From the sequence record CP127617.1: 20,718 bases of DNA. The stretch is one strand, 5' to 3'. The stretch is from a plasmid. The notes under the pieces were generated by a model. The model saw only the letters and a list, made by a program, of their open reading frames with translations, searched no databases and had not been told where the DNA came from. Shown one piece after another: positions 2,441-12,597 of the stretch. The position numbers and the translations under genes were made by a program. Numbering within the stretch: position 1 is the stretch's first letter; the number at the start of each line of letters is the position of its first letter.

Positions 2441-3201
2441 TGAGCTTTTTATGACCCCACACAAAAACATTTTCGAAGCCTTGAAATATCTGGCTTTGCC
2501 AGATCCCCCATTCATTGATGGGGACAAATTTCCCTTATGCTCTTACGGAGATTTTAGAGTTAAATTAAAATTTCTAAGTTTTTGATAAGAAAAGCCCTGC
2601 AGGAATTTAGAAGAACGTGGGGAAGTTTTAAAGAATTTTATGCTAATTTTTAATTTGCATGTAAATGGGCAGTGTCTAAAAAATAGTTATTGTTTTTGCT
2701 CAAATTTTTGTTTTTGAAAATAGCATATATTTATTTGGCTCATATTTGCGTTTTAAAAGCGTATATAAGTTTTAGATATAAAACTATATGAATCACCCCT
2801 AAATCTTTAAAATGCCCTCTTAAAATTCAAAATAAGGGCATAAAAAATAAAAGCCCCCCAGATAAAGTGAGGTAGCTTTTTCTTTCGACGCCGTATCGTC
2901 GATGTAATTCAAAAAAGTTATGGGCTATAAATCTACATCACTTTTTCAAGAATGTAGTAGCAATATTCAACGCAAATTAATTTTTATAACTGCTCGGAAT
3001 ATCTCAAGCCGTTTCTTTAATTTTGAAATAAAAAAATCGACGAAGGTCGATTACGTTTTTGCACATGTCGATTTATCCGACGTATAAGTGCGCCCTTACG
3101 GGATTTAACTAGATTATAACGACGAATTTTAGACCTGTAAAGCAATAACAATTAGGTCTACCAGGTAGATAAAGTGTACAAAGTAGAACCGAAAAAGTTA
3201 T

Positions 3202-4188: not shown

Positions 4189-4536
4189 ATGAGTTATGAA
4201 AATACTTGTGATGTGATCTGTGTACATGAGGATAAAGTTAACAATGCTTTAAGTTTTTTAGAAGATGATAAATCTAAGAAATTACTTAACATTTTAGAAA
4301 AAATTTGTGATGAGAAGAAATTGAAAATCATATTATCTTTGATTAAAGAAGATGAGTTGTGTGTTTGTGATATTTCTTTGATATTGAAAATGAGTGTTGC
4401 TTCAACTTCACATCATTTAAGGCTTTTATATAAAAATGAGGTACTTGATTTTTATAAAGATGGAAAGATGGCATATTATTTTATTAAAGACGATGAAATA
4501 AGAGAGTTTTTCTCTAAAAATCAGGAGGGTTTTTGA
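4189..4536 (+). CDS. cadX: ArsR/SmtB-family metalloregulator CadX
   Basis: 115 aa. ELCVCDISLILKMSVASTSHHLRLL is the ArsR-type metal-binding/HTH signature. Immediately downstream of cadD, as in the cadDX operon. Confidence 0.85.
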   Translation: MSYENTCDVICVHEDKVNNALSFLEDDKSKKLLNILEKICDEKKLKIILSLIKEDELCVCDISLILKMSVASTSHHLRLLYKNEVLDFYKDGKMAYYFIKDDEIREFFSKNQEGF

Positions 4537-4629
4537 AACGAGTTTCTTCTTGTCTTGATACTATAAAAAACAAAGTTATATAACATAAGACGACTTATCG
4601 GAAGTTATCTATCATCGTATATTCGGAGA

Positions 4630-4638
4630 TGATATAAT
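4630..4638 (+). promoter_or_regulatory. Extended -10 promoter (TGaTATAAT) for the type I toxin mRNA
   Basis: TG-n-TATAAT at 4630-4638, about 58 nt upstream of the toxin start. The 5'UTR can fold to sequester the SD (CTCTC..GACGC-AGAGAG). Confidence 0.5.
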
Positions 4639-4695
4639 ATACAGGTCGCCTATCTCTCAGGCGTCAATTCAGACGCAGAGAGGAGGTGCATTACT

Positions 4696-4788
4696 TTGCT
4701 AATCATTTTCGTTCACATCATAGCACCAGTCATCAGTGGCTGTGCTGTTGCGTATTATACTTATTGGCTTAGTAAACGCAACAAATAA
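4696..4788 (+). CDS. Type I toxin, PepA1 (SprA1)/Fst-like 30-aa membrane peptide (M)LIIFVHIIAPVISGCAVAYYTYWLSKRNK, TTG start
   Basis: SD GGAGGTG is 6 nt before the TTG. The peptide is near-identical in pattern to S. aureus PepA1 (MLIFVHIIAPVISGCAIAFFSYWLSRRNTK), with a hydrophobic helix and a basic tail. Confidence 0.75.
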   Translation: MLIIFVHIIAPVISGCAVAYYTYWLSKRNK

Positions 4789-4815
4789 TTAATAGGCGAC
4801 TTTATAAGCCAGCAT

Positions 4816-4881
4816 CGAAAAAATCCCCACACTATTGCAGTAGTGTGGGGATTGGTGCATTAATTGTTAATCATTTTCGTT
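4816..4881 (-). ncRNA. Antisense antitoxin RNA (SprA1AS-like), about 65 nt. Its 5' end is complementary to the toxin start-codon region through the repeated segment 4868-4881.
   Basis: Minus-strand sigma-A promoter: TTGCAT (comp. 4912-4917), 18-nt spacer, TATAAT (comp. 4888-4893). The transcript carries the complement of TAATCATTTTCGTT (identical to 4700-4713). It ends at the hairpin 4824-4851 plus T-run. Confidence 0.55.
4824..4851 (-). terminator. Intrinsic terminator (TCCCCACACTA-ttgcag-TAGTGTGGGGA) with T6 on the minus strand
   Basis: 11-bp perfect GC-rich stem. The A6 run at 4818-4823 is the T-tract for the minus-strand transcript. Confidence 0.6.
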
Positions 4882-4999
4882 ATCTAGATTATAACACTGG
4901 TTAGTAGAGGAATGCAAAAAGATAATATTTTAAGTAGTCTTTTTGGATATTATCATATGATATATTTATGTAAATTGATTTTTTATTAAAGGAGCATAT

Positions 5000-5524
5000 A
5001 TGAGTAATACTAAAATTAAATATCAAATTTTTATTTCATCAACTTATTTAGATTTAATAGAAGAGCGTCAAGCAGTAGTAGAAGCAGTTTTAAACAGTAA
5101 TAATATTCCAGCAGGTATGGAACTTTTTAACTCAAGTAGTAAAAGCCAATGGGAAATAATAACACAATGGATCAATGAATCAGATGCAGTGATATTATTG
5201 TTAGGTTCTAGTTATGGAACAATTGATAGTGAAGAAAATATTAGCTATACAGAAATGGAGTACAATTTTGCTAAATCTTTAGGTAAACCTATATATGTTT
5301 TTGAGATGAATAAAGCATCTACCGAATCCGCGGAAAAGTCTAAAAAATTAGATGAGTTTAAGACAAAAGTTAAAGAAAATAGACTAATTAGTCCAAATAT
5401 TAATGATATTTCGGAATTAAAAAGTAAAGTATCTCAGACTTTAATGCAAAGTGTACCTAGTGAAATTAAAGAAAATAGTGGATGGATAAGAGTACAGGAT
5501 TGTGGTAAAAATGTAAAAAATTAA
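5000..5524 (+). CDS. DUF4062-type domain protein (conserved FISST motif; proposed TIR-like fold), 174 aa
   Basis: KIKYQIFISSTYLDLIEERQAVVEAV.. carries the SST motif and acidic EER segment typical of DUF4062. A later hydrophobic core strand reads ESDAVILLLGSSYG. SD AAGGAG lies upstream of the ATG. Confidence 0.7.
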   Translation: MSNTKIKYQIFISSTYLDLIEERQAVVEAVLNSNNIPAGMELFNSSSKSQWEIITQWINESDAVILLLGSSYGTIDSEENISYTEMEYNFAKSLGKPIYVFEMNKASTESAEKSKKLDEFKTKVKENRLISPNINDISELKSKVSQTLMQSVPSEIKENSGWIRVQDCGKNVKN

Positions 5525-5529
5525 AAAAA

Positions 5530-5973
5530 TTGGATGCTATACAAAGAGATTTAGATACATATGATTTTTTGAAAGAAGAACTTTATAAAATATTCATGTA
5601 TGTAAAAACTTTTTATTTCCAGCACACACCATTTGATGATAGTTATATTGAAGATATAGAAAACTACCTGCTAAATTATGAAAATAATCCACATAAATCA
5701 TTCATGAAAATAAAAGTTTATGATTATAAAAACTTTTTAAAACATTTAAAAAACATATTGATTTTAATTAAACAAGGAAAAAAGCCATTAGCTCAAGCCG
5801 GTCATTTTAAATTAAGCTTTTACGAAGAGGATTTAAAATTGTTACAAAAAAATTATAAGACTACGCTAGTCGATATTAAAGGATTGAATAAACATTTTTA
5901 TAAGGAATGTGATAGGTGCTTAAAAGCATATAATATTTTTATTGAGGGTATAAATAAACATTTATATGAATGA
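5530..5973 (+). CDS. Hypothetical 147-aa protein. It may be the C-terminal part of the upstream DUF4062 protein (it is in the -1 frame relative to 5000-5524).
   Basis: The ORF begins at a TTG with no SD, 6 nt after the upstream stop. The -1 frame is open from 5509. A6 and A7 runs (5515-5520, 5523-5529) lie at the junction. No recognisable motifs except CDRC near the C-terminus. Confidence 0.45.
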   Translation: MDAIQRDLDTYDFLKEELYKIFMYVKTFYFQHTPFDDSYIEDIENYLLNYENNPHKSFMKIKVYDYKNFLKHLKNILILIKQGKKPLAQAGHFKLSFYEEDLKLLQKNYKTTLVDIKGLNKHFYKECDRCLKAYNIFIEGINKHLYE

Positions 5974-5979
5974 TATAAG

Positions 5980-6125
5980 TACACCCTAATCATACATATA
6001 TAATTGTTGTCACTTTACTCGATATATGAGAATGACTTTACCTAATAAATGAGAAAAGCAACGCACTATATTAAAATGCGTTGCTTTTTCTATTATCGAA
6101 TACCTATAACTAAACTATCTCTAGC
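5980..6125. repeat. Tn552-like left terminal inverted repeat
   Basis: Its reverse complement aligns with 12431-12597 (TACACCCTAATCATAC..AATTGTTGTCACTTT..GATATATGAGAAT..AAATGAGAAAAGCAACGCACT..GCGTTGCTTTTTC..CCTATAA.TAAACTAT). Confidence 0.75.
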
Positions 6126-6908
6126 TGTTTCTACAACTTCTGTACTTATTTTATCTAAACCATTTATATCCATAATTCTGTCTATCTGCGCAAATAAACG
6201 ATGAATCAGCCTAAAATTCCCTTTTGTAATTTTAATAATCGTCGTTATTGCCTCATAATCAGTAAAGTCTTCGAGTTTTAAATCAAATCCTAAGTCTTGC
6301 CACTTATATTCTAATATATGATGCGTCTCATCTTTACTTAGATTATCAAATTCATGCGCAAAACCTATACGCGAATATAATTGAGGATAACGAGATAGTT
6401 TTTTCTCTATACCCGGCATACCAATAAATATCATTGCTAAATTATGTTCATCATAAATAGCTCTTAATTGCTCTAAATGTTGCACTTTAAGGCGATCAAT
6501 CTCATCTACTATAATTAAATCAATATATTTAAACATATCACTATAATGTTTACTATGTTCATGTCCATACTTATTTACAACATGTAATTTTTGACCCAAA
6601 TCAATGATTGCAGTAATACTATATAAATCATTCCTTAATTTAGTTTGTTTTTCTGCTGGTGCATTATAAAATATTTTATCCACCGATAGTATGTCATCGG
6701 TCGTTTTACTAGCTAAATCTTCCCAACCTCTATGGTTAACTTGTTTTTCAATAGTATCCCAATTTGTGTAATACCTAGACGATAAAGTTTTTCCGACACC
6801 AGGTTGACCATAACATATACCAATATACTGATATTTAATACAAGCATCACAAAATTCAGCAAAGCGTTTATACTCTTTCGTTTCAATGAAATTTTGATTT
6901 TTAGTCAT
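6093..6908 (-). CDS. Tn552 p271 ATP-binding transposition protein (IstB/TnsC-like AAA+)
   Basis: 271 aa with Walker A GQPGVGKT and Walker B IIVDEIDRL. It overlaps the p480 stop by 8 bp. Confidence 0.85.
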   Translation of the reverse strand: MTKNQNFIETKEYKRFAEFCDACIKYQYIGICYGQPGVGKTLSSRYYTNWDTIEKQVNHRGWEDLASKTTDDILSVDKIFYNAPAEKQTKLRNDLYSITAIIDLGQKLHVVNKYGHEHSKHYSDMFKYIDLIIVDEIDRLKVQHLEQLRAIYDEHNLAMIFIGMPGIEKKLSRYPQLYSRIGFAHEFDNLSKDETHHILEYKWQDLGFDLKLEDFTDYEAITTIIKITKGNFRLIHRLFAQIDRIMDINGLDKISTEVVETARDSLVIGIR

Positions 6909-8344
6909 TACGATATCTCTTTAATTTTTTGACGTTTTTAGTCGTTTCTTGAGGTGAATAACCACAATTTTTTTCTTCCTTAATTAATTCCGTGGTACTT
7001 GGACTAGCAATATTTTGTTTTAAGTGTTTTCTTCTCTGACTACGAGCGTGCTGTATGTCTTTTATATCTATGGAGTAATCAGCTATTTCTGGACATATAG
7101 CAGTACAAAGAAATTCATCTCTATAAAACACACGTATTTCAGCCATATCATTTGGGTTATAACGAATCAGTACATATTCACCTACATAAGCTTCTAGATT
7201 AGTATTACTGTATCGAAAACCTTGAAAATGAATGCCATCTGAATGAACTTTTCTAGATTTAGGTATTTCCAACAATAATAAATCAAGTTGTTCTAAGCTA
7301 CTTGGCATATTAGGGAAAAAGTGATTACTATTCCAATGACTGATAGGCGTGGTATGAATAGTACTATGTTCTTTTTGATTATAATCTTCAATTAAAAAGT
7401 AACGTAATTTTTCTTCAAAATTGTGAAAATTTATTAGATTACTAGGAGTATCATTATTGTTTATATATCCAGGCAGTTGTTCTAAGAAAGTTTGATTAAC
7501 TGTCTGAAAGAATCGTTCTATTTTTCCACGACCACGAGGAACACCAACTTTCGAAAACATCAAGTTAATTTTCAAATCAATAGCGACTTGTTCCATATGA
7601 TGTGAAGTAAAGTCACTTCCATGATCTGTGTAGAATTTTTCGGGTATACCACACACTGGCCAATTGGTATCATTTTTATTCCATATTGCTTGGTGTAGTG
7701 TTAATGCTGTGTTTTGAGCATTGGGGGGCATCAAAACTTAAGAAATAGCCTGCAATTGCACGACTATAGTCATCCATAATAATAGTTAGCCATGGTCTAT
7801 TGATATTACCTTTTTGGTCTAATATAAAGATATCTAGCAAAGTATGGTCTGCTTGCCATATTTCATTGGGTCTCGAGGATTCTCTAATTTGTATTAAATC
7901 GTACTTATTTTGATAGTATTTTTCACCCTGATGAGAGAAATCAATAACAGACTTAGGCATCGCTTTAATAACACTATAAATTTGTTTATAACTTGGTATA
8001 TCAAAATTATTTTCTTTACAGTAATTAGTGATTTTCCTATGAATTGTGGCTATACTATTTCTTTTATTCATAAGCGCAAGGCGTTCAATTTCATCAATTA
8101 TCTTTGGTTCTATTTTACGTGTTCCTTTATCAGCTCTTGTCGCATAGATTAGTCCTTTAAGTCCTTGTTCTTTATATGACTTATTCCACCTATAAAGGGT
8201 GCTTAACGCAATCCCTTTACTTTTAGAAATACTTGATAAAGATTGTTCGCCTAGGATAAAAGGTTTTATAATATTGTACTTTTGAGTAGCTTTTTTACGT
8301 TTGGCTTCAGAAAAATTAGTTAGATACTTCTCCTTGTTTTTCAT
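6901..8344 (-). CDS. Tn552 transposase p480 (DDE, Mu/IS21-like), interrupted by a 1-bp frameshift in a C6/G6 homopolymer at 7723-7728
   Basis: The N-terminal part runs from MKNKEKYLTNF.. to ..SFDAP. The C-terminal part (NAQNTALTLHQAIW..DHGSDFTS..) continues in the +1 frame. Combined length is about 480 aa. SFDAP|NAQN is restored by removing one C. Confidence 0.8.
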
Positions 8345-8909
8345 CTTCCTTGTCCTCCAATTTATTGAGGTAACGATAAATTGTTGTACGTGAAACATGC
8401 CACTGTTCTGCAATTGTCTTAATTGGCGTGCCATTATCATAAAGGGTCTTAAGTAAGTTTAAATCTTTTTGATTTAATTTTTCTGGTCTGCCTCCATATC
8501 GGCCTCTAGCACGTGCTGCAATTCGGCCAGCTGAAGAACGCTCTAAAATTAAATTACGTTCAAATTCTGCAAATGCTGCGAATAAATGAAATAATAATTG
8601 TCCAGTTGAACTTGATTTATCCATTGTTATATTTTCTTCTAAACTATGGAAACTTACACCTCGTTCGTTAAGCTCATTAACTAATGTGATTAAATCCTCC
8701 ATATTACGTCCCAATCTATCTAATCTCCAAACAACAATCGTATCTCCTGACCTCGCAAATTCAATTGCTTTATCTAAACCAGGTCTTTTACTTTTTGAAC
8801 CACTCATATGGTCATTAAATATCTTTTCACAACCATATGTATTTAATCGATCCTCCTGTAAATTTAAATTTTGTAATCCAGTTGAAACTCTTGCATAACC
8901 TATTTTCAA
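8316..8909 (-). CDS. binL: Serine recombinase (resolvase/invertase) BinL/Bin3 of Tn552
   Basis: MKIGYARVSTGLQNLNLQ.. has the catalytic Ser in the YARVS motif. C-terminal HTH TIAEQWHVSRTTIYRYL. The 3' end overlaps the p480 start. Confidence 0.85.
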   Translation of the reverse strand: MKIGYARVSTGLQNLNLQEDRLNTYGCEKIFNDHMSGSKSKRPGLDKAIEFARSGDTIVVWRLDRLGRNMEDLITLVNELNERGVSFHSLEENITMDKSSSTGQLLFHLFAAFAEFERNLILERSSAGRIAARARGRYGGRPEKLNQKDLNLLKTLYDNGTPIKTIAEQWHVSRTTIYRYLNKLEDKEDEKQGEVSN

Positions 8910-9039
8910 AATACAAACCTCCTATATACATCTTCAGTGTACCATAACTTAATTACAAGGTCTTTTATGAACATAGATTTTTTGTTGGGTTTTTGAACAC
9001 ATAATCCTATGTAATTCTTACTTATTTAGACATAAAAGA

Positions 9040-9075
9040 AGAGTGTACAGAAAATGGTTATTTTCTGTACACTCT
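9040..9075. repeat. Perfect 16-bp inverted repeat AGAGTGTACAGAAAAT-ggtt-ATTTTCTGTACACTCT. Candidate binL res crossover site and/or blaI-operon terminator.
   Basis: Direct reading. It lies upstream of binL and 3' of blaI. TGT..ACA-ended dyads of ~28-36 bp are typical of serine-resolvase site I. Confidence 0.5.
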
Positions 9076-9172
9076 CATCTTTAATAATATATTTTAAATG
9101 TCATTAACAAAACTAATTTAATAAGAGTCAAGCATAGTTTACATATGTATTATGTTTGAAACATACCTCTAA

Positions 9173-9553
9173 TTACTTTTTACTAATATCATTTAAAATA
9201 TCTCGCAATTCTTCAATTTCTTTGTTATTTAATTCTTCATTTTTCGCAAAATTCAACACTAAACTTTTCATATCCCCTCCATACAGTTTATTAAGAAAGG
9301 TTTTAGCAGTTTTCATTTTAATATCGTCTTCTTTAATATTTGATGAGTAAAAATAAATATTTTCTGATTTGTATCGTTTTATAATCTCTTTTTTATATAG
9401 TCTTGTGATTAATGTTCTAATCGTTTTATCACTAACTTCTTTATATTTTTGAATTTCAACTACAATTTCATTAGCTGATACTGATTTTTTATCCCATATT
9501 ATATTCATAACATCCCATTCAGCCATAGATATTTCAACTTGCTTATTGGCCAT
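9173..9553 (-). CDS. blaI: Beta-lactamase repressor BlaI
   Basis: 126 aa. [55 protein letters not shown] is a winged helix. It overlaps the blaR1 end. Confidence 0.95.
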
Positions 9554-11300
9554 TTAAAACACCCATTCCTTTTAATATTTTTTCACTTATTAATTCAGCA
9601 TTTTTCCCAGACGGGTTTCCATCTGATAAATGTGTAGCAAAATAATACTTATCATGATTTGTAATTACGTAACCTACAAACCACCCATTATTATACTTCC
9701 CGTTTACTATACCTGTACCTGTTTTCCCATACAGTTCATACTTTTCATTTTTCTTAATCAATAATGAAGAAGATAATTGATTCTTTGCTTTTTTACTAAA
9801 ATGGTTATTTTGTTCCATCATATTTTTAAAAACTATTACTTGTTCAAGATTAGATATTTTCAAACTATCTTCCATCCAATAGCTTTTATAACTTCCCAAA
9901 TTTTCATTACCATAATTTAATTGCTTGAGTTGAGCCGCAGTATAGTTCTTTGGTATTTGATTACTAATACGTTCGAAGTACCAATTAACTGAATTTTGCA
10001 TTGCTGTATTTAAATCTTGTTCCTTATTCCAAGACTCGAAAAGATAATGTTTATGATTCCATGACATACGTGAATTTTTATCACTTATAATATGACGGTC
10101 AAGTCCAAACAGTGCTAAATAAATTTTGTAAGTTGAATCAGGAGAATATCTTTTTCTACTTTCTTTTTCATTATAAATATAGTATTTGTCTTTCTTCATG
10201 CTGTACATAACGAAAGATCCACTATTTGAACCAAAATTTTTACTTTCATCTAAAATTTGGTAATCGCTTTGTAAGGGCTTTTTATAATTATAATCAGTTA
10301 AGGATTGCCCCATTAAAAACTGGCTTTGAATTATCATGATAAAAAAAGTAAAAATACAAATAAAAATTAGAATTAATTTTGACTGCTTTTTCAGATCGGC
10401 TTCTTTTATATTAATTAATCTATTTTTGAGTAATGATTTTTTACCATTAAATGAATGGCTTAATATATTTTTGTTGAAAAATGAGGTTTTTAATACGGAG
10501 TCCATAATAGATTCCGCATAAGTTTTAAATTCATTTTTGTTAATATTATTAAGGACAAATCTATCGGCTTCTACTTCATTGTCATGAATTATCTTTCTTT
10601 TTACAATATGTACTAATGGATTGTAACTCATAATAATAGAGAAGATATTAAAGATAATTAAATGTAAAGTATCTCTATTTTTAGCATGAGCATATTCATG
10701 CAGTATTATATATTTTAGTCTTTTATCAATTACACTTTTAAAATATGAACTAGGAATCAAAATAATATATTTCCCATACCAAAAAGTTATTGGAGATTGA
10801 ATAGCCTCTGCTTTTCGAATCACAATATTTTTTTTATATTGATGGTTGAAAAGTATCGTATCTATTTTATTTTTTTCATTTTCGTTTAGATAAAGTGACT
10901 GTTTCTTTAAATATTTAAGATATAATAAGGCTTTCAAAAATTTAAAACTTAAAATAATAACTAAAACTATCCAAATAACTGTGCAGATATTATCAATTGA
11001 ATCCCAATTAAACTTATGGATATCTGTTGCGAACTCTTGAACAGGTTTGGTGGTAATTATGTTATGGTTCAAGTCGTGTGACTTACTTTCAACTGTGGGC
11101 GCTTGATTATTCACATTATTAAATTTTATAAAAGAGAATTTAATTGGGATAAAAGGAATTAATCCAGCAAGCACAGTTAGATACCAAACTTTATAATTTA
11201 AACTATAATTAAAATAGCGTTTTAATATGTACCTAAAAAATACTAACAATAGAAATATAAAACAAAAGCTTACTACACTCATTATTAGTAATTTAGCCAT
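9543..11300 (-). CDS. blaR1: Beta-lactam sensor/signal transducer BlaR1 (start at MAKLLIMS; SD GAAGGTG)
   Basis: N-terminal TM region. HEYAH zinc-protease motif ([12 protein letters not shown]). C-terminal penicillin-binding sensor domain with a KTGTG motif. Confidence 0.95.
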
Positions 11301-11331
11301 TTTGACACCTTCTTTCAAATATTTATAATAA

Positions 11332-12252
<921 letters not shown>

Positions 12253-12430
12253 TATTCTAAATGCATAATAAATACTGATAACATCTTATAGTTTGTATTA
12301 TATTTTCTATTATCGTTGACATGTATAATTTTGATATCAAAACCTGATTTTCCCTTTATTATTTTCGAGATTTATTTTCTTAATTCTCTTTAACAAACTA
12401 GAAATATTGTATATACAAAAAATCATAAAT

Positions 12431-12597
12431 AATAGATGAATAGTTTAATTATAGGTGTTCATCAATCGAAAAAGCAACGTATCTTATTTAAAGTGCGTTG
12501 CTTTTTTCTCATTTATAAGGTTAAATAATTCTCATATATCAAGCAAAGTGACATAATTGTTGAATTTATAGTAACTGAAACGTATGATTAGGGTGTA
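12431..12597. repeat. Tn552-like right terminal inverted repeat
   Basis: Reverse complement of the 5980-6125 repeat. It ends 24 bp before the sin start codon. Confidence 0.75.

What the first reader, a model, noticed from the sequence alone, without database searches (positions are those of the whole stretch)
5000..5973. DUF4062 (SST-motif, TIR-like) module of unknown function, possibly one frameshifted gene, adjacent to a transposon end
The 174-aa protein opens with KIKYQIFISSTYLDLIEERQ, the signature of DUF4062. This small N-terminal domain has a proposed TIR/flavodoxin-like fold. Its secondary-structure pattern (beta-strand FISS, helix, strand AVILLLGSSYG, then YTEMEY with an acidic residue) resembles TIR NADase cores.

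It is followed 6 nt later, in the -1 frame, by a 147-aa ORF with no homology I can recognise. That ORF has no SD and a TTG start. The junction contains the heptamer A_AAA_AAT (5515-5521) two nucleotides before the stop, plus an A7 run. The -1 frame is open from 5509.

Three readings are possible: (a) a TIR-like plus small-partner two-gene module; (b) a single ~320-aa DUF4062 protein broken by a 1-nt indel; (c) programmed -1 frameshifting giving short and long isoforms. DUF4062 is usually an N-terminal effector/sensor module of larger NTPase or defence-type proteins. A stand-alone 174-aa form on a staphylococcal plasmid backbone is not a described system.
Basis: partly seen in the sequence, partly recalled or inferred. 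Interest (0 to 1): 0.7.

Follow-up and report, generated by a model that had tools for sequence, protein, structure and literature searches.

The report
Frameshifted Eva01 phage-defence gene on plasmid
The two adjacent reading frames are one gene, the recently described plasmid-borne anti-phage protein Eva01 (a TIR-like NAD-degrading enzyme joined to a sensor tail), broken here by loss of a single A from a run of seven; the same broken allele turns up in hundreds of other S. aureus assemblies.

Summary
ORF 5000-5524 (174 aa) is a strong DUF4062 match. A 147-aa ORF follows in the -1 frame.

Reading (b) is right. Putting one A back into the A6 run at 5515-5520 gives a 324-aa protein. It is identical to the commonest allele of a DUF4062 protein on S. 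aureus cadD/blaZ plasmids. Orthologues at 73-89% identity also read straight through the junction.

The gene fits Eva01 ("Evangelion"), a pMW2 anti-phage abortive-infection gene described in a June 2026 preprint. Two other 2026 preprints (Swarozyc, NIR) show DUF4062 is a TIR-like NADase. So "not a described system" is out of date.

In that preprint a stop engineered near codon 177 abolished defence. This allele stops after codon 174, so it is probably a null.

The deletion is unlikely to be a one-off sequencing error, because the exact 174-aa product occurs on 761 public contigs.

The junction is a tandem (A7TT)x2. All five ±1-nt frameshift alleles I looked up there exist, on 196-761 contigs each. 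Slips at a third A7 run in the same gene are on only 10-14 contigs.

Nothing supports programmed frameshifting or a split two-gene module.

The parts
4696..4788 (+). Fst-family type I toxin ORF (30 aa) immediately upstream. It is part of the conserved neighbourhood, not of the defence gene itself.
   Evidence: Translation LLIIFVHIIAPVISGCAVAYYTYWLSKRNK*. Annotated as an Fst family toxin at the same relative position in relatives.
4739..4839 (-). fstAT antitoxin sRNA of the upstream type I toxin-antitoxin pair
   Evidence: Rfam RF01797, 88.5 bits against a gathering score of 72, E=5e-16.
4822..4853 (.). GC-rich hairpin with T-run. It is a terminator-like site separating the Fst locus from the Eva01 gene.
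   Evidence: Terminator scan, 13-bp stem.
4990..4994 (+). Shine-Dalgarno AGGAG, 5 nt before the ATG of the gene
   Evidence: Read directly from the sequence.
5000..5524 (+). 5' part of the Eva01 gene as it now reads: a 174-aa product holding the DUF4062/TIR-like NADase core (F11, Q50-W51-E52, E87-Y88) and the W162 strand. It ends at a premature TAA created by the frameshift.
   Evidence: Pfam PF13271, E=9e-27. Conserved residues. AF2 model: residues 9-150 have block-mean pLDDT of about 50-90, mostly above 80. Top fold matches are TIR domains and nucleoside deoxyribosyltransferases. KpSwz solved structure, E=4e-21.
5515..5529 (+). Mutational hot spot: A6-TT-A7 here, A7-TT-A7 in the intact gene (a tandem 9-mer AAAAAAATT x2 encoding K-K-L-K-K-L). 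The window lacks one A from the first run.
   Evidence: Alignment with CP029650. Junction strings in 20 loci. All predicted slip products are present in public assemblies.
5525..5973 (+). 3' part of the Eva01 gene (helical stalk plus AUX sensor region, residues 175-324 of the intact protein). It is now out of frame and is listed mechanically as a 147-aa TTG ORF at 5530-5973.
   Evidence: Re-inserting one A gives a 324-aa product identical to P0121. Orthologues at 73-89% identity read through GKNVKK[L/I]KK[L/I]DAIQRDLD in one frame. The profile of the family aligns to KpSwz over positions 5-298.
6008..6118 (.). Terminal inverted repeat of the Tn552-like bla transposon (element 6008-12553), 35 nt downstream of the gene. 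It contains the terminator hairpin 6054-6088 of the convergent AAA-ATPase gene.
   Evidence: Inverted repeats I1 and I2. Terminator scan. Relatives with other downstream DNA diverge from the window at about 5997.

Best explanation
Window 5000-5973 is a single gene. It is the plasmid-borne anti-phage gene Eva01 (Evangelion type 01; DUF4062/NIR family) and carries a 1-nt deletion, A7 to A6, in the first of two tandem A7 tracts at codons 173-174.

**How the intact protein works.** The intact 324-aa protein has an N-terminal TIR-like NADase core (catalytic Glu87), then a W162-containing strand, a helical stalk and a C-terminal AUX region that acts as the sensor. From the published work on Eva01 and its relative Swarozyc, the mechanism is as follows. 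AUX detects an infection cue; for Eva01 the cue is linked to phage recombination and replication. That detection activates the DUF4062 core, which depletes NAD+ and aborts the infection.

**What the deletion does.** It puts a TAA after codon 174. Only the core is made, and the stalk and AUX are left untranslated in the -1 frame.

**Shown.**
- The gene is one ORF in relatives.
- The lesion is a homopolymer slip.
- The same allele is widespread in independent assemblies.

**Inferred.**
- This allele is defence-null, by analogy with the published stop near codon 177.
- The allele arose by slipped-strand mispairing at a tract that is unusually prone to it.
For: **One gene.**
- CP029650 and 49 other PLSDB plasmids match the 251-nt junction query over 252 bases with one gap.
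- The explicit alignment shows A7 in the relative against A6 in the window, with no other difference across 162 nt.
- Adding one A reconstitutes a 324-aa protein identical to P0121, annotated as a DUF4062 domain-containing protein.
- Orthologues of 323-324 aa at 73-89% identity cover 100% of it in one frame.

**Family and fold.**
- Pfam DUF4062, E=9e-27.
- F11, Q50, E87, Y88 and W162 are invariant in 65 homologues.
- The solved Swarozyc structure 10wc matches at E=4e-21, and at 3.6e-51 with the family profile.
- The AF2 core has a five-strand, five-helix topology. Its best PDB fold matches are TIR domains (RPS4, SPARTA TIR-APAZ, SARM1, AbTir) and nucleoside deoxyribosyltransferases.

**Identity with Eva01.**
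- The preprint's residue numbers F11, W51-E52, E87-Y88, W162 and F212 all fall on those residues here.
- The context is the same: an S. aureus bla/cad plasmid of about 20.7 kb.

**Function.**
- In the preprint, E87A and an AUX truncation (L177*) abolish defence against Silviavirus phages, and NAD+ falls on infection.
- KpSwz needs its catalytic Glu and its AUX domain and is a portal-activated NADase.
- The DUF4062/NIR domain of PsAvs2 depletes NAD+.

**The allele is real.**
- The exact 174-aa product is on 761 contigs from NCBI, ENA and Logan.
- It is indexed in 1,008 blocks of the collection, against 10,033 for the intact protein.
- Five fetched loci show the same A6-TT junction on plasmid-sized contigs of about 20.7 kb.
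Against: - I could not retrieve pMW2 itself, and no supplementary files of the preprint are held. Identity with Eva01 therefore rests on residue numbering and context.
- One number does not fit. Position 177 is K here, and the nearest leucines are 175 and 178.
- For this particular record a sequencing error at the homopolymer cannot be excluded from sequence alone.
- Loss of defence is inferred from an engineered stop, not measured for this allele.
- Low-level rescue by ribosomal or transcriptional slippage on the A-run is not excluded.
Confidence: 0.82

Rival explanations
1. Sequencing or assembly artefact: the real plasmid has A7 and an intact gene, and one A was lost from the homopolymer in this record.
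For: - The lesion is a single-base homopolymer length change.
- No PLSDB record matches the 251-nt junction query at 100%.
- The window has a few private differences from close relatives, for example at 103-111, 3328 and 6380.
Against: - The identical 174-aa product is found on 761 contigs from several sources and in 1,008 index blocks. These include whole-plasmid contigs of about 20.7 kb from independent samples with the same backbone.
- The window is not error-ridden. It has few indels relative to RefSeq-quality plasmids, and several of those are shared polymorphisms.
Confidence: 0.12
2. Programmed -1 ribosomal frameshifting (or transcriptional slippage) at A_AAA_AAT next to the stop. It would give a short 174-aa isoform and a full-length isoform in a set ratio.
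For: - A slippery-type heptamer lies in the correct register and directly abuts a stop codon, and the -1 frame is open from 5509.
- Some slippage on A-runs is physically plausible (general knowledge).
Against: - The two-frame layout is not conserved. The majority allele and all orthologues at 73-89% identity are one continuous ORF.
- No downstream stimulatory structure: MFE -5.7 kcal/mol, z=+0.87, and 167 of 200 shuffles fold at least as well.
- Other natural alleles break the frame at other positions and in the +1 direction, which a -1 device cannot explain.
Confidence: 0.04
3. Functional split system: the 174-aa core and a separately translated 147-aa AUX protein (TTG at 5530) assemble non-covalently and still defend.
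For: - ORF2 is intact and starts 6 nt after the ORF1 stop, so termination-reinitiation is conceivable.
- Gene callers list it as a gene in other assemblies.
Against: - ORF2 has no Shine-Dalgarno and a TTG start.
- Every split layout I found is a ±1-nt slip allele of the single ORF that is read in one frame in all orthologues at 73-89% identity.
- The engineered stop near codon 177 abolished defence.
- In KpSwz the stalk that links core to AUX is thought to transmit activation mechanically.
- ORF2 being intact says little, because the alleles differ by only a handful of SNPs.
Confidence: 0.04
4. Contingency (phase-variable) switch: the tandem A7 tracts are a selected ON/OFF device for a costly abortive-infection gene, not just a fragile spot. 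This extends the best explanation rather than contradicting it.
For: - All five ±1 alleles I looked up at the junction exist at high counts: run-1 A6 on 761 contigs; T deletion on 411; run-1 A8 and run-2 A8 on 261 and 196 (the output does not say which is which); run-2 A6 on 250.
- ±1 slips at a third A7 tract in the same gene are on only 10 and 14 contigs.
- Both A6 alleles occur on both backgrounds of SNP 5860.
- One locus has A6/A8, meaning two successive events.
Against: - Contig counts reflect clonal expansion and sampling, not numbers of events.
- AAA is the normal Lys codon in AT-rich staphylococci, so the tract needs no selective explanation.
- A7 is short for a classical phase-variable tract.
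- No reversion has been demonstrated.
- Plasmid recombination could also shuffle SNP 5860 against the junction alleles.
Confidence: 0.2

Closest known systems
Eva01 / Evangelion type 01 of S. aureus plasmid pMW2 (bioRxiv 10.64898/2026.06.25.731849)
   Same: - Same host, plasmid type and neighbourhood (cadD/cadX, Fst toxin-antitoxin, Tn552 bla).
- Same architecture: a DUF4062 core plus a short unannotated AUX region.
- The published key residues F11, W51-E52, E87-Y88, W162 and F212 fall on exactly those residues in the repaired protein.
   Different: - The window's copy is frameshifted after codon 174, so core and AUX are uncoupled. That is close to the published defence-dead L177* construct.
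- I could not compare with the pMW2 sequence directly.
- Residue 177 is K here, not L.
Swarozyc (KpSwz, Klebsiella pneumoniae; PDB 10wc/11cq/11cv; bioRxiv 10.64898/2026.05.01.722283)
   Same: - A single-gene DUF4062 + stalk + AUX protein of similar length (326 aa).
- Sequence match E=4e-21 over residues 7-129, and E=3.6e-51 with the family profile over 5-298, including the GW(V/I)R strand.
- NADase-based abortive infection that needs both the catalytic Glu and AUX.
   Different: - The AUX regions are not detectably similar by pairwise sequence comparison.
- The trigger differs: phage portal for KpSwz, against recombination/replication-linked escape mutations for Eva01.
- Different host and a broader phage range.
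NIR (DUF4062) effector domains of Avs2, Vulcan and Vesta (bioRxiv 10.64898/2026.09.04.749371)
   Same: The same Pfam domain acts as an NAD+-depleting effector with a catalytic Glu.
   Different: In those systems the domain is fused to STAND NTPase/TPR sensors or sits in multi-part systems. Here it is joined to a small helical AUX region with no NTPase.
Canonical TIR-domain NADases (SARM1, AbTir, SPARTA TIR-APAZ, plant TNLs) and nucleoside 2-deoxyribosyltransferases
   Same: - Same flavodoxin-like beta-alpha fold.
- Best structural matches of the model: Foldseek E about 4e-4 to 5e-3, target-normalised TM up to 0.65 for stand-alone TIR domains and 0.70 for DNPH1.
- A Glu-based active site.
   Different: - No Pfam TIR family hit at E<=1; only DUF4062 is hit.
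- Sequence identity to the matches is 8-16%.
- The preprints place DUF4062 as a separate lineage.
Phase-variable defence genes with homopolymeric tracts (for example phase-variable restriction-modification 'phasevarions'; the agrA A-tract slip in S. aureus). From my own knowledge, not checked here.
   Same: An in-frame homopolymer tract whose ±1 changes switch a defence gene off, with several length alleles co-circulating.
   Different: - The tracts are only 7 nt long.
- Reversible switching has not been shown.
- The pattern may simply reflect recurrent loss plus clonal spread.

Membership tests
Pfam DUF4062 (PF13271) / NIR domain | Profile match above the curated gathering score | tested here: met
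   93.5 bits against a cut-off of 24.7, E=9.1e-27, residues 9-91 covering profile positions 1-82 of 82.
Pfam DUF4062 (PF13271) / NIR domain | Conserved catalytic glutamate and core motifs (N-terminal FISS aromatic motif, Q/W/E, SYTE-x-EY) | tested here: met
   F11, S13, S14, Q50, E87 and Y88 are invariant in 65 homologues. E87 aligns with the Ala that I take to be the E97A substitution in the deposited KpSwz chain (my inference from the chain numbering and the construct described).
Pfam DUF4062 (PF13271) / NIR domain | NAD+ hydrolase activity | not testable with these tools
   Shown biochemically for KpSwz, TEP1 and PsAvs2. For Eva01 only an NAD+ drop in infected cells is reported.
TIR-like / NDT fold | Five-stranded parallel sheet flanked by helices, structurally closest to TIR and nucleoside deoxyribosyltransferase domains | tested here: met
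   AF2 elements E9-14, H20-32, E36-38, H50-60, E63-68, H83-93, E98-103, H111-125, E130-134 and H137-150, with block-mean pLDDT mostly 80-90. Foldseek top hits are RPS4 TIR, RPPT TIR, SPARTA TIR-APAZ, NDT, SARM1 and AbTir.
Canonical TIR families (Pfam TIR clan models) | Sequence-profile match to a TIR family | tested here: not met
   hmmscan at E<=1 returned only DUF4062. The domain is therefore TIR-like by fold, not a member of a Pfam TIR family.
Evangelion type 01 (Eva01) | Same protein as the pMW2 defence gene | tested here: inconclusive
   The published residue numbers F11, W51, E52, E87, Y88, W162 and F212 all fit, but L177 does not (it is K177). The plasmid context is the same. The pMW2 sequence could not be retrieved.
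Evangelion type 01 (Eva01) | DUF4062 core covalently coupled to the AUX region in one polypeptide (required for defence) | tested here: not met
   In this window the frame breaks after codon 174. The feature is met in relatives. The window therefore holds a disrupted member.
Evangelion type 01 (Eva01) | Protection against Silviavirus phages by abortive infection | not testable with these tools
   Reported for the intact gene only.
Programmed -1 ribosomal frameshift site | Slippery heptamer X_XXY_YYZ in the zero frame | tested here: met
   A_AAA_AAT at 5515-5521 in register with ORF1.
Programmed -1 ribosomal frameshift site | Downstream stimulatory structure | tested here: not met
   Fold of 5505-5600: -5.7 kcal/mol, z=+0.87 against shuffles.
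Programmed -1 ribosomal frameshift site | The two-frame arrangement is conserved in relatives | tested here: not met
   Most copies and all diverged orthologues are one ORF.
Phase-variable (contingency) locus | Repeat tract inside the coding region with multiple length alleles in the population | tested here: met
   Junction strings A6/A7, A7/A6, A6/A8 and A7-T-A7 were seen in fetched loci. The products of run-1 A8, run-2 A8 and the one-unit deletion were found by exact protein look-up.
Phase-variable (contingency) locus | Reversible, high-frequency switching within a lineage | tested here: inconclusive
   Both A6 alleles occur on both SNP-5860 backgrounds, and an A6/A8 double allele exists. 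This fits recurrence, but recombination or clonal effects are not excluded, and no rates are available.

The most novel reading that the evidence does not exclude
The tandem (A7TT)x2 tract sits exactly at the boundary between the NADase core and the sensor. It may be a hypermutable ON/OFF switch for a plasmid-borne abortive-infection gene. Roughly one copy in six in sequenced S. aureus is switched off there, by any of five different ±1 slips. This could let plasmid-carrying populations hedge between phage protection and the cost or autoimmunity of Eva01. It would also make defence status unpredictable from gene presence alone.
Probability: 0.2. Interest if true: 0.6.

Novelty: already known. 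Interest (0 to 1): 0.33.

Why it matters
**The gene.** It is no longer a mystery.

**The practical point is the allele.** This plasmid probably carries a dead copy of Eva01. Dead copies made by 1-nt slips at the same spot are common in public S. aureus genomes.

Silviavirus phages are the group Eva01 restricts, and the preprint raises mobile-element content as a factor in therapeutic phage efficacy against MRSA. Scoring a strain as 'Eva01-positive' from a DUF4062 hit alone would therefore mispredict its phage susceptibility. The A-tract length has to be read.

**Annotation.** Pipelines currently call the two halves as separate genes, 'DUF4062 domain-containing protein' plus 'hypothetical protein'. 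This hides the fact that the pair is a pseudogene.

Tried and rejected
- **PADLOC-DB 2.0 and NCBIfam scans** of the intact protein and of ORF2 gave no hits. These libraries predate or omit the family, so the result says nothing about function.
- **Pfam on ORF2** gave only a sub-threshold ORC1 winged-HTH hit (E=0.13). It is suggestive, because the KpSwz AUX domain is an HTH/winged fold, but too weak to use.
- **The AF2 model of the AUX half** is low confidence (pLDDT about 40-55). I drew no fold conclusion for it and ran no further fold search.
- **Retrieving pMW2/pSAS** by accession (NC_005011, AP004832, NC_005951) failed. No supplements of the preprint are held.
- **CP141489 and AF128883 as references** were rejected. 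Both differ from the window by dozens of indels, in CP141489 mostly homopolymer-length changes, so they look like noisy records. I used RefSeq-quality plasmids and short-read assemblies instead.
- **The programmed frameshift and the two-gene module** were considered and rejected, for the reasons given under rival explanations.
Full report
**1.

ORF1 (5000-5524, ATG, AGGAG at 4990-4994) encodes 174 aa beginning MSNTKIKYQIFISSTYLDLIEERQ. ORF2 (5530-5973, TTG, no Shine-Dalgarno) encodes 147 aa in the -1 frame, which is open from 5509. A_AAA_AAT lies at 5515-5521 and directly abuts the TAA at 5522-5524. An A7 run follows at 5523-5529.

ORF1 matches Pfam DUF4062 over the whole profile (E=9.1e-27, 93.5 bits against a cut-off of 24.7). 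ORF2 matches nothing significant. The Tn552-like transposon end (inverted repeats 6008-6118 and 12440-12553) begins 35 nt after the ORF2 stop.

**2. It is one gene with a 1-nt deletion.**

A megablast of 4850-6100 against PLSDB found S. aureus plasmids that match the 1251-nt query over 1252 bases at 99.9%. They annotate a single 'DUF4062 domain-containing protein' there. In CP029650 that gene is 975 nt, or 324 aa. The alignment shows a single difference: GT-A7-TT-A7-TTGG in the relative, against GT-A6-TT-A7-TTGG in the window.

Fifty of the 58 PLSDB records that hold the junction match the 251-nt query over 252 bases with one gap. None matches at 100%.

Re-inserting one A into the window gives a 324-aa protein identical to P0121, the commonest allele. 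Orthologues of 323-324 aa at 73-89% identity, including one from S. caprae, read GKNVKK[L/I]KK[L/I]DAIQRDLD in one frame. The fused ORF is therefore ancestral, and reading (b) is right.

**3. What the gene is.**

A full-text search for DUF4062 found three 2026 preprints.

- **Ibarra-Chavez et al.** found that loss of the MRSA plasmid pMW2 sensitises S. aureus to Silviavirus phages, and mapped the effect to one DUF4062 gene, Eva01 ('Evangelion'). The protein has a conserved N-terminal core and a short unannotated AUX tail. F11A, E87A, W162A/F and an AUX truncation (L177*) abolish defence. NAD+ falls on infection. Escape mutations hit phage RecA/Sak/UvsX-type genes.
- **Osinski et al.** showed that DUF4062 is a TIR-like NADase, and that the single-gene system Swarozyc (KpSwz) needs both its catalytic Glu and its AUX domain. 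The AUX domain binds the phage portal.
- **Le Mouellic et al.** renamed the domain NIR and showed NAD+ depletion by an Avs2 that carries it.

In the repaired window protein, F11, Q50-W51-E52, E87-Y88, W162 and F212 sit exactly at the published Eva01 numbers. Only 'L177' does not fit: residue 177 is K, and the nearest leucines are 175 and 178. I could not fetch pMW2 to compare directly.

**4. My own tests agree with the family assignment.**

- F11, S13, S14, Q50, E87, Y88 and W162 are invariant across 65 homologues.
- The solved KpSwz chain matches at E=4.4e-21 (residues 7-129). With the family profile the match is E=3.6e-51 over positions 5-298, including the GW(V/I)R strand.
- An AlphaFold2 model gives a five-strand, five-helix core with mostly good confidence (residues 9-150) and a low-confidence all-helical C-terminal half.
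- The best PDB fold matches are TIR domains (RPS4, RPPT, SPARTA TIR-APAZ, SARM1, AbTir, TIR-STING) and nucleoside deoxyribosyltransferases/DNPH1.
- No Pfam TIR family is hit by sequence. The domain is TIR-like, not a TIR family member.

**5. Consequence of the lesion.**

The stop after codon 174 falls just past the W162 strand, at the start of the long helix (H171-208 in the model). In KpSwz the corresponding region forms the stalk that leads to AUX. The product is therefore the NADase core alone.

The preprint's engineered stop a few codons later was as sensitive to phage as the inactive controls, and KpSwz without AUX is also inactive. I infer that this allele is defence-null. That is an inference, not a measurement.

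**6. The allele is real and common.**

- The exact 174-aa product is on 761 contigs from NCBI, ENA and Logan and in 1,008 index blocks, mostly on contigs of 20-50 kb. The intact protein is in 10,033 blocks.
- Five fetched loci carry the same A6-TT junction on pMW2-like backbones of about 20.7 kb.
- A one-off sequencing error is thus unlikely as the origin of the allele, although it cannot be excluded for this single record.

**7. The junction is a hot spot.**

The intact sequence is a tandem 9-mer, (AAAAAAATT)x2. I predicted every ±1 slip product and looked each up by exact sequence. All exist.

| Allele | Product | Contigs |
|---|---|---|
| Run-1 A6 (the window's allele) | 174 aa | 761 |
| Loss of one T (A7-T-A7) | 174 aa, ending NVKK | 411 |
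| Run-1 A8 and run-2 A8 (two distinct products; the output does not say which is which) | 188 aa each | 261 and 196 |
| Run-2 A6 | 184 aa | 250 (533 index blocks) |
| In-frame loss of one 9-mer | 321 aa | 19 |
| Third A7 run (5846-5852), ±1 slips | 289 and 286 aa | 10 and 14 |

The third A7 run is an internal control against a purely technical explanation, because it has the same length and lies in the same gene.

Both A6 alleles occur on both states of SNP 5860, and intact A7/A7 copies carry 5860A; an intact-length variant allele (L005) and two protein records carry the 5860G state. One locus has A6/A8. This suggests recurrent events, although recombination and clonal sampling could contribute.

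The preprint's main text does not mention frameshifts, pseudogenes or homopolymers.

**8. Rivals.**

- **Programmed -1 frameshifting.** The heptamer is there, but the two-frame layout is not conserved. There is no downstream structure (z=+0.87), and other natural alleles shift at other sites and in the other direction.
- **A functional split system.** ORF2 has no Shine-Dalgarno, every split layout found is a slip allele of a gene that is one ORF in all orthologues, and the published stop mutant is dead.
- **A selected phase-variable switch.** This remains possible, and I rate it about 0.2. It is the most novel reading left.

**9. Neighbourhood.**

- Upstream lie cadD and cadX, then an Fst/fstAT type I toxin-antitoxin pair (4696-4839).
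- Downstream is a Tn552-like bla transposon.
- In pJMUB3031 the slot between Fst and Tn552 holds an oxidoreductase and a MarR regulator instead of Eva01.
- In other records Eva01 is followed by a resolvase, IS257 or other IS elements, and some copies are chromosomal.
- The gene therefore behaves as swappable cargo at a recombination-prone site.

**10. Verdict.**

This is a known gene (Eva01, a DUF4062/NIR TIR-like NADase defence protein) in a naturally occurring frameshifted form that is probably inactive. It is ordinary as a discovery. The recurrent breakage at the core-sensor junction is a modest new observation worth a proper phylogenetic and experimental test.

Noticed in passing
window 6901-8440 (- strand): The Tn552 transposase (p480) is split into overlapping ORFs of 277 and 254 aa around a G6 run near 7723-7728. 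RefSeq-quality relatives and short-read contigs share the split (genes of 276 and 222 aa). One noisy record with G5 (CP141489) annotates an intact 480-aa protein. This looks like a second homopolymer-linked pseudogene on the plasmid.
   Followed up: partly
window 5846-5852: A third A7 tract lies inside the same gene. Its ±1 frameshift products (289 and 286 aa) exist, but on only 10 and 14 contigs, against 196-761 for each junction allele. It is a useful internal control for mutation or error rate.
   Followed up: yes
Eva01 protein cluster (P0003, P0126, P0130, P0138): In-frame deletion alleles between short direct repeats also circulate: 292 aa (loss of 32 aa between the two KEN motifs), 302 aa (between the two NKH motifs) and 321 aa (loss of one KKL unit).
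   Followed up: partly
L010 3505-3540 (Logan ERR2309613): This locus has A6-TT-A8: two successive slips. The downstream frame is restored but a TAA remains between the runs, so the product is still 174 aa.
   Followed up: partly
window 4696-4853: An Fst-family type I toxin (30 aa) lies upstream, with its fstAT antisense RNA (Rfam RF01797, 88.5 bits) and a hairpin terminator.
   Followed up: partly
window 2851-3074 (- strand): Strong Rfam hit to RefA1, 'Enterococcus sRNA A1' (222 bits against a gathering score of 94), upstream of cadD.
   Followed up: no
L006 (pJMUB3031) 4484-7373, compared with window 4696-6908: On an otherwise near-identical plasmid, the slot between the Fst toxin and the Tn552 end holds an oxidoreductase plus a MarR regulator instead of Eva01. 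This suggests cargo exchange at the site.
   Followed up: partly
window 4533: The window and AF128883 lack one copy of a 9-nt tandem unit (TGAAACGAG) that overlaps the cadX stop codon and is present in all other relatives examined. It has no effect on the 115-aa product.
   Followed up: partly
Eva01 preprint compared with the repaired protein, residue 177: The published truncation is named L177*, but residue 177 of the 324-aa protein is K, and the leucines are at 175 and 178. All other published residue numbers fit.
   Followed up: partly
whole window compared with AF128883.1 (L002): The window is the same circular plasmid of about 20.7 kb as the GenBank record 'S. aureus 21kb plasmid' (20,719 bp). 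Identity is only 99.4%, with 49 indel columns and N's, so that record looks error-prone.
   Followed up: partly
L015, L019, L022, L023, L025, L026: The cadD-cadX-Fst-Eva01 block also occurs on contigs of 2.5-2.9 Mb, that is, integrated in S. aureus chromosomes. Some copies lie next to IS257-type transposases or serine-protease genes.
   Followed up: no
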